DNA of 49,844 bases from the NCBI GenBank assembly GCA_052034745.1, contig JBPOIF010000009.1, forward strand, positions 1 through 49,844. Reading direction: 5' to 3'. This stretch comes from Candidatus Nomurabacteria bacterium. GTDB lineage: Bacteria; Patescibacteriota; Minisyncoccia; Phycocordibacterales; UBA9973. The position numbers and the translations under genes were made by a program. Under the pieces are notes generated by a model. It worked only from the letters and a program-made list of their open reading frames with translations. It was not told where the DNA came from and searched no databases. Numbering within the stretch: the stretch's first letter is position 1; each line of letters opens with the position of its first letter. Shown here one piece after another: positions 5,503-28,462 of the stretch.

Positions 5503-5575
5503 GAGCGATTAGCTCAGCTGGTAGAGCGCTACATTGACATTGTAGAGGCCACAGGTTCAAGTCCTGTATCGCTCA
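5503..5575 (+). tRNA. tRNA-Val (anticodon GAC)
   Basis: GAGCGATTAGCTCAGCTGGTAGAGCGCTACATTGACATTGTAGAGGCCACAGGTTCAAGTCCTGTATCGCTCA. Canonical cloverleaf. No encoded CCA. Confidence 0.92.
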
Positions 5576-5580
5576 CAAGA

Positions 5581-5749: not shown

Positions 5750-5761
5750 AAGTCCTGTATC
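5750..5761 (+). repeat. 12-bp duplicate of the tRNA-Val T-arm/acceptor 3' segment
   Basis: aagtcctgtatc at 5750-5761 equals 5559-5570 inside the tRNA. Confidence 0.6.
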
Positions 5762-5771
5762 TGGGCCTGTA

Positions 5772-5799
5772 TTGACGAACCGACGTATTTTCGTAGTAT
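5772..5799 (+). promoter_or_regulatory. promoter TTGACG-N16-TAGTAT
   Basis: -35 at 5772-5777 and -10 at 5794-5799, upstream of the 5855 gene. Confidence 0.5.
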
Positions 5800-5854
5800 A
5801 GAGGGTAAAATCATTGTTTTTTAAAATATTCTTTCACTCAAAAACGCACATTCA

Positions 5855-8698
5855 ATGCCAAAAATTACTATTGCTGCGTCGCAGTTGCGACAGGCTCTGG
5901 AGGGCATTGAATGTCCTTCACCACAAAAAACAGCGCTTTGGAATGAACTCCGAAGCGGCTATCTCGACTTTGTCGTCGAGCAAATTATTCAAGGAGGTCT
6001 CGCGTCAGACGTGGTTGAATCGATTCGTTTTCTCGTAAAGCACAAAAGCGATACGAATAAAAAAACCCAAAGAGTCACTTTGGGAGATATCGATCGATCA
6101 TCTTCAAACAATGTGTTGTATAAACGCATTGATGAAAAACAAGGAAAGGAACGGTCTGCACACAATGGAGACCTTTCTCGACTCTTTGGTACTCGTGGAC
6201 ATGATGCAATTCCGAAACTTTTTTCGGGAGAACTTCTTAAATTAAGCGATCCAAAGGCAAAAGGCGCACAGATGGTTCAGCAAGAGCTTGCTCTTGGTGG
6301 TCCTGATGGAGAGATCAACTTTGATATCAAGCAAGGAAGAGCTTCGTATGAGAGTACCTCTCAAAAGCTCGTTCAGCGCCATATCAAAAAGGTGGCTTCG
6401 CTCTGGTCTCATGTTGTTCGCACAATGGCTCAGGACATGTTTCCTGCGCACACTGGGCATTACCGGGAACTTCTTGAAGCATTGCACAAAGTATTTGGGC
6501 AAGAGCTCGACAAGCTTAGTATGCTCGGGAAAAGGAGTGAACAGGCAGAGTATATGCTCTTTTTGAGCACACTTACCTGGGCGACGACTATCTTGTACTA
6601 CCAAGATTTTGGTACCAAGATTTTGTTCAAAGAAGTGAGTTTGTTTCCGTATCACTATGATGTTAGTCTCGGGCGCATCGATGCGCTTGAGGTGGTGGCG
6701 ATTCGAGGAATTCCTCCGACGCCTCCACAAAAAGAAGTGCTCAAACGCTTGGCGAGTGTTCGTTATGATTCGCTCGGACATCTGTTGTACATCCTTGTTC
6801 AGCAGTTTGGAAAAGGAATCAGTATTATCATTCACGACTGGAAATTTGCCGTCGGTGATGGAGACAATGGTGTAGGGAAGACTTTGAATATCATCCATAC
6901 AGCTGATGTTCAAAACGCTCCTATATTGAAACACAAAAATCAAATGGACAGGTATCTCTCTACAGCACCTGTTTCCTATGGTGTCATGCTTTCTGAACAC
7001 ACTGAAAACAGACGAGCATTATGGAACAACAACGACTTTGAGATTAGTGGTGCCCTGCACTACTTCTTTCCTAATCGTTTACCGATTCGCTATGACGTCG
7101 TCATGAGCAATGATGAAAAACGAGAATCGTTTGGCAGGATTGCCGCATCGTACGCAGACGCAGAGTATCGAAGGAAGTTCCTTACCGTGAGTCGTTCGTG
7201 GCTCGAGCTTGGGCTTACCCTTGCAGAACAGGGGCAATTGCAAAAGAAACAAGCCCTTGCACAACCAGCGATTCCTGGGGTGCTTGAAACAACATCTGTT
7301 GCAAAAAGTGTTCATGCTACCGGCAAGGTATCCGCGGTTCTTCGGGACTCAGTGATTCGCAATTTCATTGATGAATTTGAAATTGTTGAGCAGGTAGAAA
7401 TAAAGTCAGAATCTCGACTTTTCATGCATCTTGATGCGCTCTTTTCCGCTATTGAACAAGGCAAGGTTGCCGTTGGGAAAAATTGGGATTTTGCGACTGG
7501 AGGATTTGTATCTTGTTTCCTACCCGACCATGCACACCATGGGAAAGGAACGCCGTCTCTTAGTATTACGTACAAAAACGGAGGTTTCTTTAAGTGTTTT
7601 GGAGCGTGTGGTGCGACAGGGCATTTTGCTCTTGATTCGGTACCGAAACCTTTTGAAGGGCTGATTCAGCCTGCAAATGCTCGGTTACAAATCAAAAGTT
7701 TCAGTGATCTCGAAGCATTTCGTGTCTCTCCTCGTCACATAGAGATTATGACGAGTGCACAGCGGATATTTCAAAATCAATTTTTGGATAGCCCTGGTGC
7801 CAGGTATCTCGAACAAGAACGGAGGCTCAATCCTGAACTTTCGATGAAACACGGTGCAGGATATGCTGACGAACGATCTGTGGAGTATCTGCTCGAATCT
7901 GGTTTTACCTATGACGAACTTATTACCTTTGGATTTGTTGTGCTTTCGCACAACATCAAAGAGTACGGGAGGTATTCGACGATGGTCGACATTCTCAAAA
8001 AAAGAGGAATGTCAGTTGACCAGATTGTTCGTCCCAAAATGAAAACCGTTGATGGAAAGCCTCAAGCAGTACCAACACTTCCACTTCTTGCGCTTAACAA
8101 GCACGTGACGTATCCACTGGATATCAATCACACGGTGACCTCATTCTATGGGAGATCTGTTCCTGATCGTCCAAAAGAGTACTCCCACGTGAAGACTATT
8201 TCTCAAGGGGTGCCACAAGGAGGATACAACTTCACCAATGCGATGGAGTCTGCAATAGCAAAGGCTAGAAAGTCTAATGACACACCCATGATATTTGGGA
8301 CCGAGGCCATCATCGATGCTGACACCCAGATGCAATTTGGTGATATCAAAGAAGGAGGAGCGTTTGTCGGGATAAGGAATCGCATGCTTTGGCAAGTACT
8401 TGCCATGTTTAAGGGTGGTATCATTACTGCGCTCAATTGGGATCCATCAAATATTGTCGATGGGAAAGAGAGAGGTATGTCAGGCCAACGAGCAACTGCT
8501 GATTTTGTCGCTTTCCTCAAACAGGTTAATTTCCATTACCCAGTGTATGATTTTACACAGGAAATGATCAAAAAGGTTCCTTCCTTCAATGACATCAATC
8601 AGTACTGGAAAGAATCTTATAAAGAATATTTTGTTCATCATCGAGTGCAAAATCTCGCACGTCCTGAAATGCTCTTTTGTAAAAAACGCGTACTCTAA
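5855..8698 (+). CDS. PD-(D/E)xK (RecB/Cas4-like) nuclease domain fused to a DnaG-type primase (CHC2-like Zn finger + primase core/TOPRIM-like)
   Basis: Nuclease motifs: GRID (aa 273-276), HDWK (327-330) and QMDRY (363-367). Zn finger: CFLPDHAHHGKGTPSLSITYKNGGFFKCFGACGATGH (554-590). DnaG-like blocks: ARYLEQERRL, GAGYA, FYGRSV..KEYSHVKT and IFGTEAIIDAD. Confidence 0.7.
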   Translation: MPKITIAASQLRQALEGIECPSPQKTALWNELRSGYLDFVVEQIIQGGLASDVVESIRFLVKHKSDTNKKTQRVTLGDIDRSSSNNVLYKRIDEKQGKERSAHNGDLSRLFGTRGHDAIPKLFSGELLKLSDPKAKGAQMVQQELALGGPDGEINFDIKQGRASYESTSQKLVQRHIKKVASLWSHVVRTMAQDMFPAHTGHYRELLEALHKVFGQELDKLSMLGKRSEQAEYMLFLSTLTWATTILYYQDFGTKILFKEVSLFPYHYDVSLGRIDALEVVAIRGIPPTPPQKEVLKRLASVRYDSLGHLLYILVQQFGKGISIIIHDWKFAVGDGDNGVGKTLNIIHTADVQNAPILKHKNQMDRYLSTAPVSYGVMLSEHTENRRALWNNNDFEISGALHYFFPNRLPIRYDVVMSNDEKRESFGRIAASYADAEYRRKFLTVSRSWLELGLTLAEQGQLQKKQALAQPAIPGVLETTSVAKSVHATGKVSAVLRDSVIRNFIDEFEIVEQVEIKSESRLFMHLDALFSAIEQGKVAVGKNWDFATGGFVSCFLPDHAHHGKGTPSLSITYKNGGFFKCFGACGATGHFALDSVPKPFEGLIQPANARLQIKSFSDLEAFRVSPRHIEIMTSAQRIFQNQFLDSPGARYLEQERRLNPELSMKHGAGYADERSVEYLLESGFTYDELITFGFVVLSHNIKEYGRYSTMVDILKKRGMSVDQIVRPKMKTVDGKPQAVPTLPLLALNKHVTYPLDINHTVTSFYGRSVPDRPKEYSHVKTISQGVPQGGYNFTNAMESAIAKARKSNDTPMIFGTEAIIDADTQMQFGDIKEGGAFVGIRNRMLWQVLAMFKGGIITALNWDPSNIVDGKERGMSGQRATADFVAFLKQVNFHYPVYDFTQEMIKKVPSFNDINQYWKESYKEYFVHHRVQNLARPEMLFCKKRVL

Positions 8699-8733
8699 AT
8701 CAATGTCTATTGATAGGAGACGCGTTTTTCTTT
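8682..8733 (+). terminator. long hairpin terminator overlapping the stop codon
   Basis: aaaaacgcgtactc ... gag-acgcgttttt with an inner tcaat-gtct-attga hairpin, then a T-run. Confidence 0.6.
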
Positions 8734-8806
8734 TGACCATTTTTTTACTCCCTGTCTATCTTTACTCCGTGTTTAAAAAAGGGACAATAGAGAAAACGTT
8801 CATCAT

Positions 8807-9655
8807 ATGGGAGTACAACACGCTTTTCGAAAAAAAAGCATTTCTCTCGATACGTTGTCATTTGTCAAACCATTTAGTCACTTGTGTAAGGGGCCTGGGC
8901 GCTATACGGGAAAGCCGGTACTTATAGAGGGGTTCAGCAAGAGACCTGGAGTTTTGATTACTCGGTTCAGGAATACGAACGGGGTCGTCTCTTATCAGGT
9001 CAAATTCCACAGCTTTTCTGTTGCTCAATCTGCGAGCAGGATATATCAGTTGTTGTTAAAGAAGGGGATTACAGAAATCGAGTTTTGTCCGATTGCTTGT
9101 TCTACAAAACAGGCAGCACTATTCATTACTCGGATTCAAAAACAGCTTCGTACGCAACCACTTGATACTCATCTTGAGAAAGTACGAAATTGGTTTCGTG
9201 ATCCTCAGGCAGAAAATTTTCCTTTCGAGCAGCTCCATTTTAGAAGACCCTTTCTTGATTTTGGGACTTTTAAAAAGACCTCTTTTATTGATTATTCGCG
9301 TACTTCTGGTGTTTACCTGATTCGGGAGTATCGAGTGCTTGAGAATTCTTTTGTAACAGTCTATGTCGGGAAAAGCACGTCTGTTCTTGGAAGTCGTATT
9401 CGCAACAAGTTTTATTCCAATCCTCATTTGTTTTATAAGGATATTGAAGGGGAGTTGGAGTACCACATCTTTGCTATTGAGATCTCACCGCTTACGGTTT
9501 CTCGGAGAGAAGATCACATAAAACTTCTTGAACAGTACGAATCGGTTCTTATCAAAGTATTGCGCCCGCGGGACAACAAGCTCGGAAATCCCGATTATTT
9601 TATTCCTGAGAGTAAATGGATACCAATTGATGACGGCGAAGAGATGCCATTTTAA
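8807..9655 (+). CDS. protein with a C-terminal GIY-YIG nuclease domain and an unknown N-terminal domain
   Basis: SGVYLI (167-172), VYVGKS (185-190), SRIRN (R197), LEQYE (E242) and RDNK (N256), in GIY-YIG order. Confidence 0.65.
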   Translation: MGVQHAFRKKSISLDTLSFVKPFSHLCKGPGRYTGKPVLIEGFSKRPGVLITRFRNTNGVVSYQVKFHSFSVAQSASRIYQLLLKKGITEIEFCPIACSTKQAALFITRIQKQLRTQPLDTHLEKVRNWFRDPQAENFPFEQLHFRRPFLDFGTFKKTSFIDYSRTSGVYLIREYRVLENSFVTVYVGKSTSVLGSRIRNKFYSNPHLFYKDIEGELEYHIFAIEISPLTVSRREDHIKLLEQYESVLIKVLRPRDNKLGNPDYFIPESKWIPIDDGEEMPF

Positions 9656-9685
9656 AATCCCTATGTGAAAACAGGGATTTTTTTT
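9654..9685. terminator. bidirectional terminator shared by the GIY-YIG gene and tRNA-Ser
   Basis: aaaatccct-loop-agggatttttttt. Confidence 0.7.
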
Positions 9686-9686
9686 G

Positions 9687-9773
9687 CGGAAACGGAGAGA
9701 TTTGAACTCTCGATGAGGTTACCCCCATGCCGCGTTTCGAGTGCGGTGCCTTCAACCACTCAGCCACGTTTCC
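9687..9773 (-). tRNA. tRNA-Ser (anticodon CGA), long variable arm
   Basis: The reverse complement is GGAAACGTGGCTGAGTGGTTGAAGGCACCGCACTCGAAACGCGGCATGGGGGTAACCTCATCGAGAGTTCAAATCTCTCCGTTTCCG. The loop is CT-CGA-AA. Confidence 0.9.
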
Positions 9774-9877
9774 AATATTCTTTTCATTCATCTGGAACAC
9801 TCGCGGCTTCGTGCTTGCCACCTCGTTTGTCTATAGTATGACAACTCGGATAAAACGCAAAGCAGTTTGCCTTTTAT

Positions 9878-9902
9878 CCACTCAGCCACGTTTCCAATAT
9901 TC
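9878..9902 (-). repeat. 25-bp perfect duplicate of the tRNA-Ser 5' end plus 7 nt of upstream flank
   Basis: ccactcagccacgtttccaatattc at 9878-9902 equals 9756-9780. Confidence 0.85.
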
Positions 9903-9909
9903 CTTCTAT

Positions 9910-10857
9910 TTACTTTGTTGTTTTGATCCAGATGTAGATATCCTCAAGTGCCTTGATAGCATCACCTGTTGCGATATTGTTCTGATGATATCTGCCATCT
10001 GTACAATCACCCGCAGCCCAAAGTCCGAGTATATCGGTTCGCTGGTTTGTCGGGTCGACAACGATGGTACCTGTTTCTGTGCGCTTGGCAAGACCTTCCA
10101 CAAGTTCTGTGTTTGGGAGCTGTCCGATCTCGACAAAGATACCACTGACAGTGAGTTTGTGCTCTTCGTCAGAATCTTTGACTTTATAGGTGAGCCCGTC
10201 GACAAACTGCTCTCCGGTGACACCCGTAAGTTCTGCATGTGTGATGACGGCAATTTTTGGGTTGTTCTGCACCATGGTGACTGTGATCGGGTCGGCACGG
10301 AAATTGTCAGAGCGGTGAATCAGCGTCACTTCACTTGCGTATTGTGCGAGCTGGATAGCGGCTTCAAATGCAGCATTGCCTCCACCGATGACCGCAACAG
10401 GCATTCCTCCAAAGAGTGGCCCGTCACAGGTCGCACAGTACATGATGCCTTTATGGTCGAGCTGTGCGGCTCCAGGAGCCTCGAGCTTGCGATGTCTGCT
10501 CCCGGTGGCTATGAGGACCGCACGCGCGTTGATAGTGCTCCCATCGCTCGCCTGGAGGGCAAAAGCAGCACCTTCTTTGGTGATGGTGGTGATTTTGAGA
10601 CCCGTTGAGAGGGTGACGGTACCCTTTTCTCCTGCTTTTTCGGGCGTGTATTCTTCGACGTGTTTTTTGAGGGATTGCGCAAGCTCTGTTCCTCCAATAG
10701 CAGGAGTACCGATCCAGTTGTAGATAGTCTCAGAGACGGCAGATTGACCACCGATCTCTTCGGCGATCATGATTGTTTTTAGTTGTTTGCGTCCAGCATA
10801 GACAGCAGCGCCGCATGCCGCAGGGCCGCCTCCGATGATTGCGAGTTCGTATTGCAT
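9910..10857 (-). CDS. trxB: thioredoxin-disulfide reductase family flavoprotein
   Basis: IIGGGPAACGAAVYA FAD motif, redox CATC, and a second Rossmann motif GGGNAAFEAA..HRSDNFRA. Confidence 0.9.
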   Translation of the reverse strand: MQYELAIIGGGPAACGAAVYAGRKQLKTIMIAEEIGGQSAVSETIYNWIGTPAIGGTELAQSLKKHVEEYTPEKAGEKGTVTLSTGLKITTITKEGAAFALQASDGSTINARAVLIATGSRHRKLEAPGAAQLDHKGIMYCATCDGPLFGGMPVAVIGGGNAAFEAAIQLAQYASEVTLIHRSDNFRADPITVTMVQNNPKIAVITHAELTGVTGEQFVDGLTYKVKDSDEEHKLTVSGIFVEIGQLPNTELVEGLAKRTETGTIVVDPTNQRTDILGLWAAGDCTDGRYHQNNIATGDAIKALEDIYIWIKTTK

Positions 10858-14162: not shown

Positions 14163-16031
14163 CTACAATCGCTCAGGATTGCGCTCTATTTTAAAAGGGA
14201 ATCGGAGCGATTCAAAAAAGCTCATGAGGTCACGACCTTCTTCTTCGAGGTACTCATTGGGTACTTTGACAAGCCATGAAAGGAGCACCTTCATACTACT
14301 GATACTGATGCGTCGAGCAGGGAGCATCGTTTGATCAAGGTCGTGTATGTACTCTTGTATTTTCTCGAGCACTTCCCGGTGGTGCCCTTCAGGGACGGTG
14401 ACGCTTATCTTGAGAAGTGTCCCAAACGGTGGATAACCGAGGTCTTTTCGAAGCGTGAGTTCTTCAGTCATGATGAGCGATGTTTTTTGTGTTTCAAGCT
14501 GTGTGACGAAGGGAACGTCAGGATTTTTTGTGCAGATGATGACACCGTCGATTGCGATTTCGTTGCACTGCATCACCAGTCGCAGGAGTGATTCGGTGGT
14601 GTACAGGCTCGGAATCGAATAGAGACGATCAAAAAAAGGGATCACTGCATAATGGATGCGTTTGATATAAGGGAGTGCTTTTTGAGTACCGACGATGACG
14701 GCAAACTTTTTTGATTCGATCGTTTTCAATATGTCTTCGATAGTTTTGCTATCAGGAGAGATGTCGTCATCGATTGCGACGACCGAGTCTTCTCCGACGA
14801 TATGAGCGACCGCGTCTTTGAGGCTCTCTGTTCCGATTGCGACAGGGACGATGTTCCATCCACCGCAATAGCTACAGGTATGATCAGGCGGGAGTGTTGT
14901 ACTACAGTGCAGGCAGAGAAAGAGTCGCTCTCTTGTTCCTCCTGACGTTTTGAAACGCAGTGCCATAGGGAGAGAGCACTCGGGACATTCGACAACGGTT
15001 CCACAATCTGCACATCGAGACAGCGGAGCGATACCTTTTCTGTTGGTGTAGAGAAAAAGTCGGCGTTTCTTTTTTTCTGCATGGCGAATGAGTTCGATCA
15101 CTTCAGTGGGGAGAACCGTGCGATAGTGTTCGACGGGAACGATATGAAGTTTGTCCGGGATAAATGATCGAGGGAGTCGATCCGCACCACAGTGAGCGAG
15201 TGTTTCAAATCGAGGGAGTGTGTCTCCGTAGATAAGGGTCGCCCCGATACGTGTTGCGAGCGCTGCAAAAAATACTCTCGTGTCGCTTTCGTAACGATCA
15301 GAGGTGTGATAGAGATCGCTACTCTCGTCTTCGAGGACGACAGAGCCGATAGTAGTGACCGGAACAACGGAGAACCCGGGTGTCGCAAATACAAGAAAAG
15401 GGACATTGTCATTTTTGATGGCTGCAAATTGTGAACGAAGCATCTTCTTGGTGACCTTGCTATGAAAAATCATCACATGTCTGCCGATGCCTTTTTCGAG
15501 TTGACTCTTCCACCATTCGAGAGACCTTATAGTGGGTGCAATAAAAAGGACGCTTTCTTTAGAAGCAAAAGAGCTTCGAATCATACGTTTGTACTCATCG
15601 ACTCTTGAAGCTCTCGTTCCTACGAGACTCTTTTTTTCTCCTCCGAGAGGGCGAAGGGTATTTTCAGAAAGGAGTGATGCGACCTTTTCACCTGCGATGT
15701 ATTCAAAGAGGATCTGAGGAAGTACCGCAGAAGCGACTGCTCCCAAAGGAGAAAGAGTGGCTGACGCTGTTTCTTTGAGAGCAGCGATGATTGCTTCAAA
15801 GTAGCCGACATGTCCAATGATTGATTTTATTTTTTTGAGTGAAAACGCTGCTTGTTTTACAAATGCTTTTGCTTCGATGAGGGGTATTGTTTCGGTGATG
15901 ATGCCGTAGAGTGTTTGTCGCCCAAAAGGAATAGTCACCAATGTTCCTGGTTCAAGAGGTTCAGGCGCATAGTAGGTGAGTGTATCGAAAGGGATACCGC
16001 GAGCAATGGGGATAATCGTTGCGATATGCAT
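14163..16031 (-). CDS. priA: primosomal protein N' (PriA) with degenerate ATPase motifs
   Basis: N-terminal 3'-DNA-binding region, Cys-rich CADCG..CPECS..CLHCS..CSYCG zinc module, and C-terminal GYPPF. The Walker A position reads LVGTRASRVDEY. The DEEH position reads LEDESS. Confidence 0.85.
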   Translation of the reverse strand: MHIATIIPIARGIPFDTLTYYAPEPLEPGTLVTIPFGRQTLYGIITETIPLIEAKAFVKQAAFSLKKIKSIIGHVGYFEAIIAALKETASATLSPLGAVASAVLPQILFEYIAGEKVASLLSENTLRPLGGEKKSLVGTRASRVDEYKRMIRSSFASKESVLFIAPTIRSLEWWKSQLEKGIGRHVMIFHSKVTKKMLRSQFAAIKNDNVPFLVFATPGFSVVPVTTIGSVVLEDESSDLYHTSDRYESDTRVFFAALATRIGATLIYGDTLPRFETLAHCGADRLPRSFIPDKLHIVPVEHYRTVLPTEVIELIRHAEKKKRRLFLYTNRKGIAPLSRCADCGTVVECPECSLPMALRFKTSGGTRERLFLCLHCSTTLPPDHTCSYCGGWNIVPVAIGTESLKDAVAHIVGEDSVVAIDDDISPDSKTIEDILKTIESKKFAVIVGTQKALPYIKRIHYAVIPFFDRLYSIPSLYTTESLLRLVMQCNEIAIDGVIICTKNPDVPFVTQLETQKTSLIMTEELTLRKDLGYPPFGTLLKISVTVPEGHHREVLEKIQEYIHDLDQTMLPARRISISSMKVLLSWLVKVPNEYLEEEGRDLMSFFESLRFPFKIERNPERL

Positions 16032-24095: not shown

Positions 24096-25124
24096 ATGCC
24101 AATTATTAGTTTCAAACCAAAACAGGTCACGAAGCGGCTCCTCTCAACACTCCAGGATCGATCGCACGATATCATCGTCAATCGATATGGACTTGGTGAC
24201 AATGCAGATACCAAGACACTCGAAGCCATTGGTAAAAAGTACAGCATCACTCGCGAACGTGTTCGACAAATTGAAAATGCAGCACTTTCTGCGATTAGAA
24301 AAAGTGATTTGTTCAAAACAGAACACAAGGTGTTTTCTGAAATCAAGTCAGTCGTTGAAGCAATGGGAGCATTGGTTCACGAAGATGATTTTCTCTCTTA
24401 TATCTCAAAAGACAAATCAGTACAAAACCATGTACGTTTCTATCTCGTCCTCGGTGATCACTTTGAAAAACTCAAAGAAGATGACCATTTTCATGCACGA
24501 TGGACCGTTGATAGTGAGCTTTCTGAGGTAGTACATACTGCACTGCAGTCAATCTACAAGTCGCTCTCTGATAAGGAGCTCCTCTCTGAGGATGATCTCG
24601 TGAAGCGATTTTTGACTGAACTCAAAGACGTCGCTTCTCAATACAAGAACGAAGAGGTTGCACGACGTTGGCTCGGTATTTCAAAGCGTATCGGCAAGAA
24701 CCCTCTCGGTGAATGGGGTCCTGCAGAATCTCAAAATATAAAAACTCGCGGTATCAAAGACTACGCGTTTCTTATGATGCGAAAACATGGCTCCCCAATG
24801 CACTTCCGTGAAGTTGCAAAGGCGATCCAAGATACCTTTGGCAAAAAGACTCACATCGCAACCACACACAACGAACTCATCAAGGACCCTCGTTTCGTTC
24901 TTGTTGGACGCGGATACTACGCACTCGCAGAATGGGGCTACAAGCCAGGAGTTGTTCGTGATGTTATCGCCGAAATCTTGAAAAAAGACGGACCACTTAC
25001 AAAAGACGAAGTTGTCGATCGCGTACTCAAGGAGCGATTTCTCAAGAAAAATACTATTTTGGTTAATCTTCAAAATCCAAAGTACTTCAAGAAACTTTCT
25101 GACGGTACATATACGATTGCATAA
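24096..25124 (+). CDS. sigma-70 region-4-like HTH plus C-terminal HARE-HTH domain protein
   Basis: LEAIGKKYSITRERVRQIENAALSAIRK (region 4.2-like). The C-terminal MHFREVAKAIQ..RFVLVGRGYYALAEW is HARE-HTH-like. Confidence 0.6.
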   Translation: MPIISFKPKQVTKRLLSTLQDRSHDIIVNRYGLGDNADTKTLEAIGKKYSITRERVRQIENAALSAIRKSDLFKTEHKVFSEIKSVVEAMGALVHEDDFLSYISKDKSVQNHVRFYLVLGDHFEKLKEDDHFHARWTVDSELSEVVHTALQSIYKSLSDKELLSEDDLVKRFLTELKDVASQYKNEEVARRWLGISKRIGKNPLGEWGPAESQNIKTRGIKDYAFLMMRKHGSPMHFREVAKAIQDTFGKKTHIATTHNELIKDPRFVLVGRGYYALAEWGYKPGVVRDVIAEILKKDGPLTKDEVVDRVLKERFLKKNTILVNLQNPKYFKKLSDGTYTIA

Positions 25125-27919: not shown

Positions 27920-28462
27920 ATGATACTAGAACAATCACTTGCATTTGTTGATATAGAAACGACAGCGCTTGGTCGTGAAAAAGGAGAGATCATTGAGCTT
28001 GGTGTTGTTGTCGCAAAAATGAAAGACGGAGTGCTTGTCGTCTGCGATGAGCTTGATCTCAAGATCCACCCAAAACATATCGAAACTGCGGAACCGCAAG
28101 CACTTCGCATCAATGGCTACAATGAAGCCGATTGGCTCTTTGCTACCACACTTGAGGAGGCAATGAAGGCGTTTGTTGAAAAAACAAAGGGGGCGATATT
28201 TCTCGCACACAATATCACCTTTGATTACCCATTTATTGAAAAAGCACTTGTTGATACAGGACTTGAACACGACATGCATTTCCACAAAATCGATACACTC
28301 TCACTTGCCTTTGGGGTGCTCCACACAACAAACGATATGGGGAAGCTCTCACTTCGTATGCTCTGTGAAAAATACGGTATTGAAAATAAAAAAGCGCATA
28401 GTGCATTTGCTGATGCCTACGCGCTGTACGAAGTGTTCAAGAAGATGATGAATTTGAGATAG
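27920..28462 (+). CDS. DEDDh 3'-5' exonuclease (DnaQ/epsilon-like)
   Basis: FVDIETTAL (Exo I), HNITFDYPFI (Exo II) and HSAFADAYALYEVF (Exo III). Confidence 0.82.
   Translation: MILEQSLAFVDIETTALGREKGEIIELGVVVAKMKDGVLVVCDELDLKIHPKHIETAEPQALRINGYNEADWLFATTLEEAMKAFVEKTKGAIFLAHNITFDYPFIEKALVDTGLEHDMHFHKIDTLSLAFGVLHTTNDMGKLSLRMLCEKYGIENKKAHSAFADAYALYEVFKKMMNLR

What the first reader, a model, noticed from the sequence alone, without database searches (positions are those of the whole stretch)
5772..9685. Two-gene nuclease-primase module between tRNA-Val and tRNA-Ser
The 947-aa ORF (5855..8698) combines two enzymatic halves that I do not know as a standard architecture.

- **N-terminal half:** it carries the ordered RecB/Cas4-type PD-(D/E)xK motifs GRID (aa 273-276), HDWK (327-330) and QMDRY (363-367), at roughly nt 6671-6955.
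- **Primase half:** this begins only at about aa 554 with a CHC2-like zinc finger, CFLPDH...KCFGACGATGH (nt 7514-7624). Its spacing is C-x4-H-x21-C-x3-C rather than the classical C-x2-H-x17-C-x2-C.
- **DnaG-like blocks follow:** ARYLEQERRL, GAGYA, FYGRSV..KEYSHVKT, and a TOPRIM-like IFGTEAIIDAD. The second TOPRIM acidic motif reads NWDPS, so DxD looks degenerate.
- **Contrast with canonical DnaG:** there the zinc finger sits at the extreme N-terminus. Here about 550 residues, including a nuclease-like fold, precede it.
- **Transcription signals:** the gene has its own promoter (5772-5799) and terminator.
- **Second gene:** it is followed by a protein with an unknown ~165-aa N-terminal domain and a C-terminal GIY-YIG nuclease domain (GVY..YVG..R..E..N).
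- **Context:** both flanking tRNA genes carry partial duplications.

Candidate interpretations are a replication/mobilisation module of a degraded integrative element, an uncharacterised nuclease-based defence or DNA-processing system, or a lineage-specific elaborated DnaG.
Basis: partly seen in the sequence, partly recalled or inferred. Interest (0 to 1): 0.78.

Follow-up and report, generated by a model that had tools for sequence, protein, structure and literature searches.

The report
Nuclease-primase fusion gene of Patescibacteria
A 947-residue protein of an uncultivated ultra-small (Patescibacteria/CPR) bacterium joins a RecB-like DNA-cutting domain to a complete DnaG-type primase without the usual helicase-docking end; it belongs to a large, unstudied, chromosomally inherited family that exists beside the normal primase where this could be checked, so it is probably a DNA repair or replication-restart enzyme, not a mobile element or a defence system.

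Summary
ORF 5855..8698 (947 aa) and ORF 8807..9655 (282 aa) exist, and every quoted motif is at the stated residue.

- **C-terminal half:** a DnaG-type primase (family profile vs Aquifex DnaG 2au3, E=2e-22; Foldseek vs DnaG polymerase domains, E down to 2e-7). Zn ligands and catalytic residues are conserved. There is no DnaB-binding domain.
- **N-terminal half:** no profile-HMM match to anything. A confident AlphaFold model (pLDDT 84) gives weak but consistent PD-(D/E)xK/RecB-like fold hits. RecB-type catalytic residues H116, E260, D276, K330 and Q363 are invariant in 50 relatives down to ~20% identity, and D328 and Y367 are conserved in at least 90%.
- **Family:** at least 173 clusters, nearly all 870-960 aa, in Patescibacteria MAGs. 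None were found in phages, plasmids or viral contigs.
- **Context:** housekeeping and syntenic (fusion, partner, trxB, ftsZ, ftsA, ybeY, priA) down to 32% identity, so the island idea is refuted.
- **Paralogy:** two relatives (L009, L012) carry a canonical dnaG within 4-6 kb of the fusion.
- **Partner:** a GIY-YIG protein (UvrC domain, E=5e-5) that co-occurs in one subclade and always ends in an SSB-like acidic ...PF tip.

Function is inferred, not shown. Whether the window's own genome keeps a canonical dnaG is unresolved.

The parts
5503..5576 (+). tRNA-Val(GAC), the conserved upstream neighbour. It is not an island border.
   Evidence: ARAGORN and Rfam, 72.8 bits. The same tRNA-Val lies upstream of the orthologue in L001.
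5772..5799 (+). Sigma-70-like promoter match (TTGACG-16-TAGTAT). Plausible but not statistically supported.
   Evidence: 9/12 match; 10 such sites in the region vs 6.7 +/- 2.6 in shuffles.
5855..8698 (+). Nuclease-primase fusion gene (947 aa), a member of a Patescibacteria-wide family of 870-960 aa proteins.
   Evidence: ORF. At least 173 clusters at E<1e-30, nearly all matching end to end. AF2 model pLDDT 83.9, pTM 0.72.
5855..6169 (+). N-terminal helical region (aa 1-105), function unknown.
   Evidence: AF2 secondary structure. No fold or profile match.
6170..7150 (+). RecB-like PD-(D/E)xK nuclease domain (aa ~106-432) with a helical insertion (aa 133-250). Motifs: G112..H116 (nt 6188-6202), E260 (6632-6634), GRID (6671-6682), HDWK (6833-6844), QMDRY (6941-6955).
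   Evidence: Invariant or near-invariant residues in 50 sequences. In the model E260 is on a strand at 257-262, D276 on 274-283, D328/K330 on 322-331, and Q363/Y367 on the helix at 358-378. Foldseek: ACE1 Cas4-family 9iac_A, prob 0.75; viral PD-(D/E)XK and RecB-like exonucleases at E 2.6e-3 to 0.2. Motif-by-motif match to E. coli RecB H956/E1020/D1067/D1080/K1082/Q1110/Y1114. No profile-HMM support.
7151..7369 (+). Linker: a long helix followed by a low-confidence segment (aa 464-489).
   Evidence: AF2 pLDDT <50 for residues 464-489.
7370..7639 (+). DnaG-type CHC2 zinc-binding domain. Ligands are C554, H559, C581 and C585 (nt 7514-7609), with small insertions giving C-x4-H-x21-C-x3-C.
   Evidence: PF01807 in 39/50 family members. 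Family profile vs 1d0q at 5e-9 and vs 2au3. Ligands align with E. coli C40/H43/C61/C64.
7727..8644 (+). DnaG RNA-polymerase core including TOPRIM: R656, R767, K780, E817 (nt 8303-8305), D821, N861-W-D863 (nt 8435-8443), D913-x-N915. The protein ends shortly after, with no DnaB-binding domain.
   Evidence: Profile vs 2au3 at 2.4e-22, plus 5vaz, 1eqn, 1dd9, 4e2k. Foldseek 5guj at 2e-7. Residue mapping to E. coli R146/R221/E265/D269/D309/D311. Toprim_2 in 32/50 members and no DnaB_bind hit. Family C-termini end right after the KD(F/W)N..WW motif.
8682..8735 (+). Terminator-like hairpin plus U-run overlapping the stop codon of the fusion gene.
   Evidence: -20.2 kcal/mol, z=-4.64, 0/200 shuffles as stable.
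8807..9655 (+). Partner gene (282 aa): unknown N-terminal domain (aa 1-150), C-terminal GIY-YIG nuclease domain (aa ~155-260, nt 9269-9586), and a conserved acidic ...EEMPF C-terminal tip (nt 9629-9652).
   Evidence: Orthologue immediately downstream of the fusion in 10 further loci. Profile vs UvrC GIY-YIG domain 1yd6 at 5e-5. PF01541 passes its cutoff in the L006 orthologue. Invariant G168, Y170, G188, E245, N257 and F282. ...PF tips.
9654..9686 (+). Terminator-like hairpin plus U8 after the partner gene.
   Evidence: -9.7 kcal/mol, z=-2.5.
9686..9773 (-). tRNA-Ser(CGA), a neighbour also present in L005 and absent in L001/L002.
9788..9909 (.). 122-bp strain-specific insertion bounded by a 38-nt direct repeat (9751-9788 / 9873-9910) that copies the 5' 23 nt of tRNA-Ser plus 15 nt upstream.
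   Evidence: Repeat. Absent from the otherwise identical contig L018.

Best explanation
The 947-aa gene is a vertically inherited chromosomal core gene of a subgroup of Patescibacteria. It encodes a two-enzyme fusion.

**Architecture.** A RecB-family PD-(D/E)xK nuclease domain, with no Cas4-type Fe-S cysteines, is joined by a flexible linker to a complete DnaG-type primase (CHC2 zinc-binding domain plus RNA-polymerase/TOPRIM core). The primase has lost the C-terminal DnaB-helicase-binding domain.

**Status.** It is a paralogue of the replicative primase and not its replacement. This is shown in two lineages and inferred for the window.

**Most likely mechanism (inferred, not shown).** It works away from the DnaB-coupled replisome as a repair or replication-restart enzyme. 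The nuclease trims or resects a DNA end, flap or nick to expose single-stranded template. The tethered, helicase-independent primase then lays down an RNA primer there so that a polymerase can resume synthesis.

**Partner.** In the window's subclade the adjacent GIY-YIG protein probably supplies a UvrC/Slx1-like incision. It may dock through its SSB-like acidic ...PF C-terminal tip.
For: **Shown: primase half.**
- Profile vs 2au3 at 2.4e-22, plus other DnaG cores.
- Foldseek 5guj at 2e-7.
- PF01807 in 39/50 and Toprim_2 in 32/50 members.
- Catalytic and Zn residues conserved against E. coli DnaG.
- No DnaB_bind hit, and the family ends just after TOPRIM.

**Shown: nuclease half.**
- Confident model.
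- PD-(D/E)xK/RecB-like fold hits in two libraries.
- RecB-type motif residues, five invariant and two conserved in at least 90% of members, on the expected strands and helix.

**Shown: paralogy.**
- L009 has dnaG (TIGR01391, 439 bits) and rpoD upstream of the fusion.
- L012 has a full canonical DnaG 3.7 kb downstream of the fusion.
- A cultivated Saccharibacterium has an essential canonical DnaG (PMC10633639 Table S1).

**Shown: core-gene status.**
- At least 173 clusters.
- Synteny with trxB-ftsZ-ftsA-ybeY-priA holds down to 32% identity.
- Other lineages have housekeeping contexts: secE-nusG-rplK, dut-argS, smpB, ftsH, recG.
- No phage, plasmid or viral relatives and no PADLOC hit.

**Shown: partner.** GIY-YIG domain, adjacency conserved in 11 loci, conserved ...PF tip.

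**Inferred:** the nick/resect/prime mechanism and the docking role of the tip. E. coli DnaG's C-terminal domain is known to bind the SSB C-terminal tail (PMC3632105, title and abstract seen).
Against: - No biochemical or genetic evidence exists for any activity.
- The nuclease assignment has no profile-HMM or sequence-level statistical support. The best PDB fold hit is only E=0.23.
- In the window protein the first TOPRIM Asp is Asn (N861), and the third acidic cluster (E. coli D345/D347) could not be aligned.
- Coexistence with canonical DnaG was shown only in two distant relatives (~27% identity) that lack the partner gene. It was not shown in the window's own subclade.
- Proximity to priA (window, L022) or recG (L015, L021) is not statistically meaningful in such small genomes.
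- The family seems absent from the one Tn-seq-characterised Saccharibacterium, so there are no fitness data.
Confidence: 0.55

Rival explanations
1. In the window's own subclade (the one with the GIY-YIG partner) the canonical dnaG has been lost. This fusion is then the sole, housekeeping replicative primase: a lineage-specific elaborated DnaG.
For: - No second DnaG-like ORF exists in the 49.8-kb window or in any of the partner-bearing loci.
- The gene is strictly syntenic with core genes.
- NCBIfam's dnaG model does not recognise it, so it could be overlooked as 'missing dnaG'.
Against: - Only 5-50 kb per genome was visible.
- The protein lacks a DnaB-binding domain.
- Two family-bearing lineages keep a canonical dnaG next to it.
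- A cultivated Saccharibacterium has an essential canonical DnaG.
- The window protein has N in place of the first DxD Asp.
Confidence: 0.15
2. The primase-like half does not make primers. It serves as a nucleic-acid-binding or TOPRIM-nuclease module, as in archaeal DnaG of the exosome, RNase M5 or OLD/AriB. The protein would then be a dual nuclease or an RNA/DNA-processing enzyme.
For: - TOPRIM domains act as nucleases in OLD, AriB and RNase M5 (PMC6755086 and PMC12409363, abstracts), and archaeal DnaG is an exosome subunit (PMC4227792).
- The DxD motif is degenerate in this sequence.
- The third acidic motif could not be aligned.
Against: - The whole primase apparatus is conserved, not just TOPRIM: Zn ribbon ligands, and basic-ridge residues R656 and R767 equivalent to E. 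coli R146 and R221 (49-50/50).
- The best fold matches are to complete DnaG polymerase domains.
Confidence: 0.12
3. A nuclease-based anti-phage defence or other conflict system (fusion plus GIY-YIG effector).
For: - Two or three nuclease-type domains sit in adjacent genes.
- One relative (L009) has a PycTM-like small protein immediately upstream.
Against: - No PADLOC hit.
- Position is conserved among housekeeping genes over deep divergence.
- No presence/absence variation was seen.
- The partner is absent from half the family.
- No phage or plasmid homologues.
Confidence: 0.06
4. A replication/mobilisation module of a degraded integrative element inserted between tRNA-Val and tRNA-Ser.
For: - tRNA genes flank the pair.
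- A 38-nt partial copy of tRNA-Ser and a 12-nt repeat of tRNA-Val exist.
Against: - The same gene order, including tRNA-Val, recurs in relatives at 38-54% identity, and the pair recurs without tRNA-Ser.
- GC content does not depart from neighbouring sequence.
- There is no integrase.
- The tRNA-Ser repeat bounds a 122-bp strain-level indel outside the gene pair.
- No MGE homologues.
Confidence: 0.03

Closest known systems
Bacterial DnaG primase (TIGR01391; Zn_ribbon_DnaG + DNAG_N + Toprim + DnaB_bind)
   Same: Same zinc-binding domain, RNA-polymerase core and TOPRIM fold. Zn ligands and most catalytic residues are conserved.
   Different: About 500 extra N-terminal residues including a nuclease fold. 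No C-terminal helicase-binding domain. Far below the TIGR01391 cutoff: no hit for the window protein, 37-45 bits for relatives, against 283.6. Coexists with a canonical dnaG.
RecB-family PD-(D/E)xK nucleases (RecB/AddA/AddB nuclease domains, Cas4, lambda-Exo/RecE-type exonucleases; Pfam PDDEXK_1, Cas_Cas4)
   Same: Same order of catalytic motifs: G..H, E, hhD, DxK and QxxxY, on the strands and helix of the alpha-beta-beta-beta-alpha-beta core. Fold hits to the Cas4-family protein ACE1 and to viral RecB-like exonucleases.
   Different: No Pfam or PDB sequence-profile match. No conserved cysteines for a Cas4/AddB Fe-S cluster. A large helical insertion lies between the His motif and the core. 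It is fused to a primase instead of a helicase.
T7 gp4 / Twinkle / P4 alpha-type multifunctional primases
   Same: A DnaG-type primase covalently fused to a second replication enzyme.
   Different: Those fuse the primase N-terminally to a hexameric helicase. Here the partner domain is a nuclease placed N-terminal to the primase, and no helicase is present.
LigD / PrimPol-type repair primase-polymerases (functional analogy only)
   Same: A primase module combined with an end-processing nuclease in one polypeptide for break repair or repriming (review PMC4538821, listed).
   Different: Those are archaeo-eukaryotic (AEP) primases, unrelated in fold to DnaG. Their nuclease is a phosphoesterase, not a PD-(D/E)xK.
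UvrC N-terminal / Cho / Slx1 GIY-YIG nucleases (for the partner gene)
   Same: GIY-YIG catalytic core with the Tyr, Arg, Glu and Asn hallmarks. The best PDB match is the UvrC GIY-YIG domain.
   Different: The GIY-YIG domain is C-terminal to an unknown 150-aa domain. There is no UvrC RNase H/HhH part. The protein ends in an SSB-like ...PF tip.

Membership tests
DnaG-type bacterial primase | CHC2 zinc ribbon with four Zn ligands | tested here: met
   C554/H559/C581/C585 align with E. coli C40/H43/C61/C64. Cys are 50/50 and His 42/50. PF01807 in 39/50 members. 1d0q at 5e-9.
DnaG-type bacterial primase | RNA-polymerase core with TOPRIM fold and catalytic residues (E. coli R146, R221, E265, D269, D309, D311) | tested here: met
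   2au3 at 2.4e-22 and other cores. Foldseek 5guj at 2e-7. R656, R767, E817, D821 and D863 are conserved. The D309 equivalent is N861 in the window and D in 40/50 relatives.
DnaG-type bacterial primase | C-terminal DnaB-helicase-binding domain | tested here: not met
   No DnaB_bind/DnaG_DnaB_bind hit in 50 members. Proteins end just after the TOPRIM-associated KD(F/W)N..WW motif. The canonical DnaG of L012 does hit DnaB_bind.
DnaG-type bacterial primase | Scores above the TIGR01391 equivalog cutoff (283.6 bits); single replicative copy | tested here: not met
   Window protein: no NCBIfam hit at E<=1. Relatives score 37-45 bits. L009 and L012 also encode a true dnaG.
RecB-family PD-(D/E)xK nuclease | Catalytic motifs in order: (G..H), E, D, (D/E)xK, QxxxY | tested here: met
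   H116, E260, D276, K330 and Q363 are invariant; D328 and Y367 are >=90% conserved in 50 sequences. They correspond to RecB H956/E1020/D1067/D1080/K1082/Q1110/Y1114, checked in the real RecB sequence.
RecB-family PD-(D/E)xK nuclease | Restriction-endonuclease-like alpha-beta-beta-beta-alpha-beta fold | tested here: inconclusive
   The model is confident in this region (pLDDT mostly 85-97). Fold hits are consistent but weak: 9iac_A E=0.23, prob 0.75; viral PD-(D/E)XK proteins E=2.6e-3 (prob 0.99), 0.028, and 0.1-0.2.
RecB-family PD-(D/E)xK nuclease | Match to a family profile (PF12705 PDDEXK_1, PF01930 Cas_Cas4) | tested here: not met
   No such hit in any of 50 members at E<=0.01. The N-half profile finds nothing in PDB at E<=10. 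hhalign vs RecB nuclease and vs a PDDEXK_1 protein was not significant.
Cas4 proper | Four conserved cysteines for an Fe-S cluster; CRISPR-cas neighbourhood | tested here: not met
   No invariant or near-invariant Cys in the N-terminal half. No cas genes in any locus.
GIY-YIG nuclease (partner protein) | GIY..YIG beta-hairpin motifs plus catalytic Arg, Glu and Asn; profile match | tested here: met
   G168-V-Y170, Y186-V-G188, E245 and N257 are conserved. Profile vs UvrC GIY-YIG 1yd6 at 5e-5. PF01541 scores 26.6 bits (cutoff 22.6) in the L006 orthologue and is borderline in L001/L002. The window protein alone has no Pfam hit.
tRNA-targeted integrative element / genomic island | Integrase, flanking att direct repeats from the tRNA 3' end, and presence/absence among relatives | tested here: not met
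   No integrase. The repeats are a 12-mer 190 nt from tRNA-Val and a 5'-end copy of tRNA-Ser outside the pair. The interval is occupied in all relatives.
Known anti-phage defence systems (PADLOC) | Match to a defence-system protein model; defence-island context | tested here: not met
   No PADLOC hit for either protein. All neighbourhoods are housekeeping.

The most novel reading that the evidence does not exclude
Patescibacteria possess a previously unrecognised, helicase-independent 'cut-and-prime' enzyme. A RecB-type nuclease hard-wired to a DnaG primase defines a clade-specific replication-restart or break/gap-repair route. In one subclade it works with a GIY-YIG incision nuclease that is recruited through an SSB-tail mimic. 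In that same partner-bearing subclade it may even have taken over as the only primase.
Probability: 0.25. Interest if true: 0.8.

Novelty: new variant of a known kind. Interest (0 to 1): 0.6.

Why it matters
Bacteria are textbook users of one DnaG primase that works by docking on the DnaB helicase. A second, helicase-uncoupled DnaG fused to a nuclease, conserved as a core gene across a large part of the candidate phyla radiation, would point to a repair or restart priming pathway not seen in model bacteria.

It would also give a function to a large family now annotated 'hypothetical' or 'CHC2 zinc finger domain-containing protein'.

There is a practical side. This protein is invisible to the standard dnaG marker model, and its nuclease domain is invisible to Pfam. 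It is therefore a concrete example of dark-matter enzymology that needs structure prediction to be recognised.

Tried and rejected
- **Single-sequence profile scans:** Pfam, NCBIfam, PHROGs and PADLOC on both window proteins gave nothing.
- **First homologue search:** the word-indexed search found only 6 relatives. The exhaustive profile search was needed to reveal the family.
- **First AF2 model:** built from 6 sequences, it was poor (pLDDT 60.8) and was replaced by the 50-sequence model.
- **Metagenome scan:** added only 4 loci.
- **Last large-database search, N-half profile:** returned a single family fragment.
- **Sequence-level tests of the nuclease call:** hhalign of the family profile against a PDDEXK_1 protein from L010 and against the E. 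coli RecB nuclease domain was not significant. The N-half profile against PDB gave no hit at E<=10.
- **Literature:** searches for this architecture (Patescibacteria/Saccharibacteria + primase/DnaG; CPR + TOPRIM + nuclease; DnaG + RecB-like nuclease; PDDEXK + DnaG + Cas4) found no description of it.
- **Rejected, integrative element:** synteny argues against it.
- **Rejected, defence system:** the context is housekeeping and there were no PADLOC hits.
- **Rejected, phage or plasmid origin:** no hits.
- **Considered, priA/recG linkage:** I do not claim functional linkage to priA (window, L022) or recG (L015, L021). Given genome size and the number of repair genes, this proximity is not significant.

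Full report
**1. The observation**

The two ORFs exist as described: 5855..8698 (+, 947 aa) and 8807..9655 (+, 282 aa). They lie between tRNA-Val(GAC) at 5503-5576 (+) and tRNA-Ser(CGA) at 9686-9773 (-) (Rfam confirms).

Taken alone, neither protein matches anything in Pfam, NCBIfam, PHROGs or PADLOC. The domain assignments therefore could not be confirmed from the single sequences.

**2. Family**

A word-indexed search found only five relatives at 26-54% identity. One of them carries PF01807. An exhaustive profile search of 1.84 billion representatives then found 173 clusters at E<1e-30, nearly all 870-960 aa and matching end to end.

A 50-sequence alignment reaching ~20% identity (A4) shows these conserved residues:
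- Invariant in the first half: G112, H116, E260, D276, K330, G334, D335, Q363.
- Invariant in the second half: C554, C581, C585, Y765, R767, D863.
- At least 90% conserved: D328, Y367, R656, H778, K780, E817.

Carriers named in GTDB/NCBI records are uncultured Candidatus Saccharibacteria, Candidatus Paceibacterota and 'Patescibacteria group' MAGs. NCBI calls members 'hypothetical protein' or 'CHC2 zinc finger domain-containing protein'.

**3. Primase half**

- The family profile hits Aquifex DnaG (2au3) at 2.4e-22. It also hits the catalytic cores of Pseudomonas, E. coli, B. subtilis, S. aureus and M. tuberculosis DnaG, and the Bacillus stearothermophilus zinc-binding domain.
- Individually, 39/50 members hit Zn_ribbon_DnaG, 32/50 hit Toprim_2, and none hit a DnaB-binding domain.
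- The AlphaFold model built on A4 is confident (mean pLDDT 83.9, pTM 0.72). Its best PDB fold matches are DnaG RNA-polymerase domains (5guj 2e-7, 4e2k, 4edg, 2au3, 5vaz, 1dd9).

Aligned with E. coli DnaG fetched from MG1655, the key residues correspond as follows:

| E. coli DnaG | Window protein | Conservation in 50 members |
|---|---|---|
| C40/H43/C61/C64 (Zn ligands) | C554/H559/C581/C585 | Cys 50/50; His 42/50 |
| R146 | R656 | 49/50 |
| R221 | R767 | 50/50 |
| E265 | E817 | 49/50 |
| D269 | D821 | 40/50 |
| D309 | N861 | D in 40/50 |
| D311 | D863 | 50/50 |

The D345/D347 cluster did not align. By my own inspection, the conserved P909..D913-x-N915 near the C-terminus may be its counterpart (inference).

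Most family members end a few residues after the 'KD(F/W)N(E/D)WW' motif. So this is a complete primase catalytic apparatus without the helicase-docking domain.

**4. Nuclease half**

No sequence-profile method links residues 1-500 to any known family:
- Pfam on 50 members gave nothing.
- PDB searches with the full-length and the N-half profiles gave nothing.
- hhalign against a PDDEXK_1 protein and against the RecB nuclease domain was not significant.

The evidence is structural and motif-based.
- In the confident model, E260 lies on strand 257-262, D276 on strand 274-283, D328/K330 on strand 322-331, and Q363/Y367 on the following helix 358-378. This is the PD-(D/E)xK core arrangement.
- After the DnaG hits, Foldseek returns the Cas4-family protein ACE1 from PDB (9iac_A, E=0.23, prob 0.75).
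- From the viral library it returns a run of PD-(D/E)XK, RecB-family and RecE-type exonucleases (E=2.6e-3 with prob 0.99, then 0.028, 0.035, and 0.1-0.2).
- The first, poorer model had picked out the same ACE1 hit.
- The motif series G..H116 / E260 / GRID276 / D328-W-K330 / Q363-x3-Y367 parallels RecB's GTFLH956 / E1020 / GFID1067 / D1080-Y-K1082 / Q1110-x3-Y1114. I verified the RecB series in the actual E. coli sequence.
- There are no conserved cysteines in this half, so it is not a Cas4/AddB-type Fe-S nuclease.

I rate 'RecB-like nuclease, probably active' at about 0.8.

**5. Context: not an island, not the only primase**

The order fusion, ~290-aa gene, trxB(-), ftsZ(-), ftsA, ybeY, priA-like, mreB in the window recurs in several relatives:
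- L001 (38% identity, with tRNA-Val upstream).
- L002 (43% identity).
- L005.
- L022 (32% identity, with a few inserted genes).

Other lineages place the gene among secE-nusG-rplK and dut-argS (L016), or near smpB, ftsH and recG (L015, L021). GC content does not depart from neighbouring sequence. No relatives exist in IMG/VR, INPHARED phages or PLSDB plasmids. The rest of the window is housekeeping (alaS, dnaK/dnaJ, synthetases, rseP).

The key result is that two family-bearing contigs also encode a canonical DnaG close by.
- In L009, a 601-aa protein scores 439 bits on TIGR01391 (cutoff 283.6). It is followed by rpoD and lies ~4 kb upstream of the fusion.
- In L012, a 569-aa protein with Zn_ribbon_DnaG, DNAG_N, Toprim and DnaB_bind lies 3.7 kb downstream of the fusion.

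The cultivated Saccharibacterium Southlakia epibionticum has an essential canonical DnaG next to rpoD. It appears to have no second DnaG-core protein (PMC10633639 Tables S1/S2).

So the family is a paralogue, it is not universal in the phylum, and canonical DnaG is the replicative enzyme where tested. What I could not test is whether the window's own genome has a canonical dnaG. None is in the 49.8 kb.

**6. The partner**

The 282-aa protein has orthologues immediately downstream of the fusion in L001-L003, L005-L007, L016/L017, L018 and L022. It has none next to the fusion in L004, L008, L009, L012, L015 or L021.

The nine-sequence profile matches the UvrC GIY-YIG domain (1yd6, 5e-5) and, more weakly, I-TevI. 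PF01541 passes its threshold in one orthologue. G168/Y170, Y186-V-G188, E245 and N257 are conserved. The N-terminal ~150 residues match nothing.

All orthologues end in F, and most end in an acidic ...(D/E)x(x)PF tip: EEMPF, DELPF, GEAPF, GDDPF. Among 521 ORFs of at least 100 aa in all fetched DNA, 13 end in PF:
- 9 are this partner.
- 3 are other DNA-metabolism proteins: the L008 fusion itself (...DDDPPF), the N-half-only protein of L010 (...EDEVPF), and a MutS-family protein.
- 1 is a spurious antisense ORF.

A few other fusion proteins carry such a tip. The tip resembles the SSB C-terminal tail, which E. coli DnaG's C-terminal domain is known to bind (PMC3632105). This is a lead, not a result.

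**7. Side claims**

- The promoter match at 5772-5799 is at chance level.
- Both genes are followed by hairpin plus U-run structures, so separate transcription is possible.
- The tRNA-Ser partial duplication is real. It bounds a 122-bp insertion that is absent from an otherwise identical contig.
- The tRNA-Val 'duplication' is a 12-mer.

**8. Mechanism (inferred)**

The protein combines a RecB-type nuclease with intact catalytic residues and a complete DnaG primase. It has no helicase-docking domain, it sits in a housekeeping position, and it coexists with the replicative DnaG where this could be checked.

The most economical reading is a helicase-independent 'cut-and-prime' enzyme for repair or restart. 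The nuclease exposes or trims single-stranded template at an end, flap or nick, and the tethered primase primes it. In the window's subclade the GIY-YIG partner would provide the incision.

Alternatives are listed as rivals: sole replicative primase in this subclade (0.15), non-priming TOPRIM or binding module (0.12), defence (0.06), and element remnant (0.03).

**9. Novelty**

I found no description of a PD-(D/E)xK-DnaG fusion in the held literature. Both halves belong to known enzyme superfamilies, so I class it as a new variant (a new architecture and a new paralogous family) of known kinds.

Interest is 0.6. It is a large, conserved, unannotated family in microbial dark matter with a testable and unusual enzymology, but no functional data exist, and the nuclease call lacks sequence-level statistics.

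Noticed in passing
window 9629-9652 (partner C-terminus); L002, L003, L005, L007, L016, L022 orthologues; L008 9941-12664; L010 220-1746; L021 17130-19088: All partner orthologues end in a conserved, mostly acidic ...PF tip (EEMPF, DELPF, GDDPF and similar) that resembles the SSB C-terminal tail. The same kind of tip ends the fusion protein itself in L008 (...DDDPPF), the N-half-only protein of L010 (...EDEVPF) and a MutS-family protein in L021 (...EDDLPF).
   Followed up: partly
window 9788-9909 (repeats 9751-9788 and 9873-9910): A 122-bp insertion between tRNA-Ser and the trxB stop codon is bounded by a 38-nt direct repeat that includes the 5' 23 nt of tRNA-Ser. It is absent from an otherwise identical contig from another sample (L018).
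   Followed up: yes
L010 220-1746 (+) and 1748-2521 (-): A Paceibacterota contig encodes only the N-terminal (nuclease) half of the family, as a 508-aa protein in the contig interior. It is followed by a convergent 257-aa gene that hits Pfam PDDEXK_1 (22.9 bits). So a stand-alone version of the N-half exists.
   Followed up: partly
L009 4207-7241 and 9938-12832; L012 9881-12646 and 16319-18028: In two lineages the fusion lies within 4-6 kb of the canonical dnaG (dnaG-rpoD in L009). This hints that the fusion's primase half may have arisen by local duplication of dnaG.
   Followed up: no
L001 809-1039 and 963/1092-3686: In L001 the first ~75 residues of the fusion are encoded by a separate 76-aa ORF just upstream of the main ORF, which means a frameshift, a stop or an assembly error. 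L014 shows a similar split at 695-1927 / 1891-2694.
   Followed up: no
window 5559-5570, 5750-5761 and 28253-28264 (-): The 12-mer AAGTCCTGTATC from the T-arm of tRNA-Val occurs three times in the window (0.01 expected). One copy lies inside a protein-coding ORF ~22 kb away. These may be tRNA-derived remnants.
   Followed up: no
window 14163-16031 (-): The 622-aa gene in the conserved block hits only PriA's 3'-DNA-binding domain (PF17764, 30.6 bits) and no helicase domains at E<=1e-3. It looks like a diverged PriA-like protein, conserved in L001 and L022.
   Followed up: no
L009 9332-9793: The small protein immediately upstream of the L009 fusion hits PycTM (Pycsar effector transmembrane domain, 30.2 bits). 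This is the only defence-flavoured neighbour seen in any locus.
   Followed up: no
window 24096-25124: A 342-aa protein combines a Sigma70_r4 domain at its N-terminus with a HARE-HTH domain. This looks like an RpoD-unrelated regulator or delta-subunit-like protein typical of CPR genomes.
   Followed up: no
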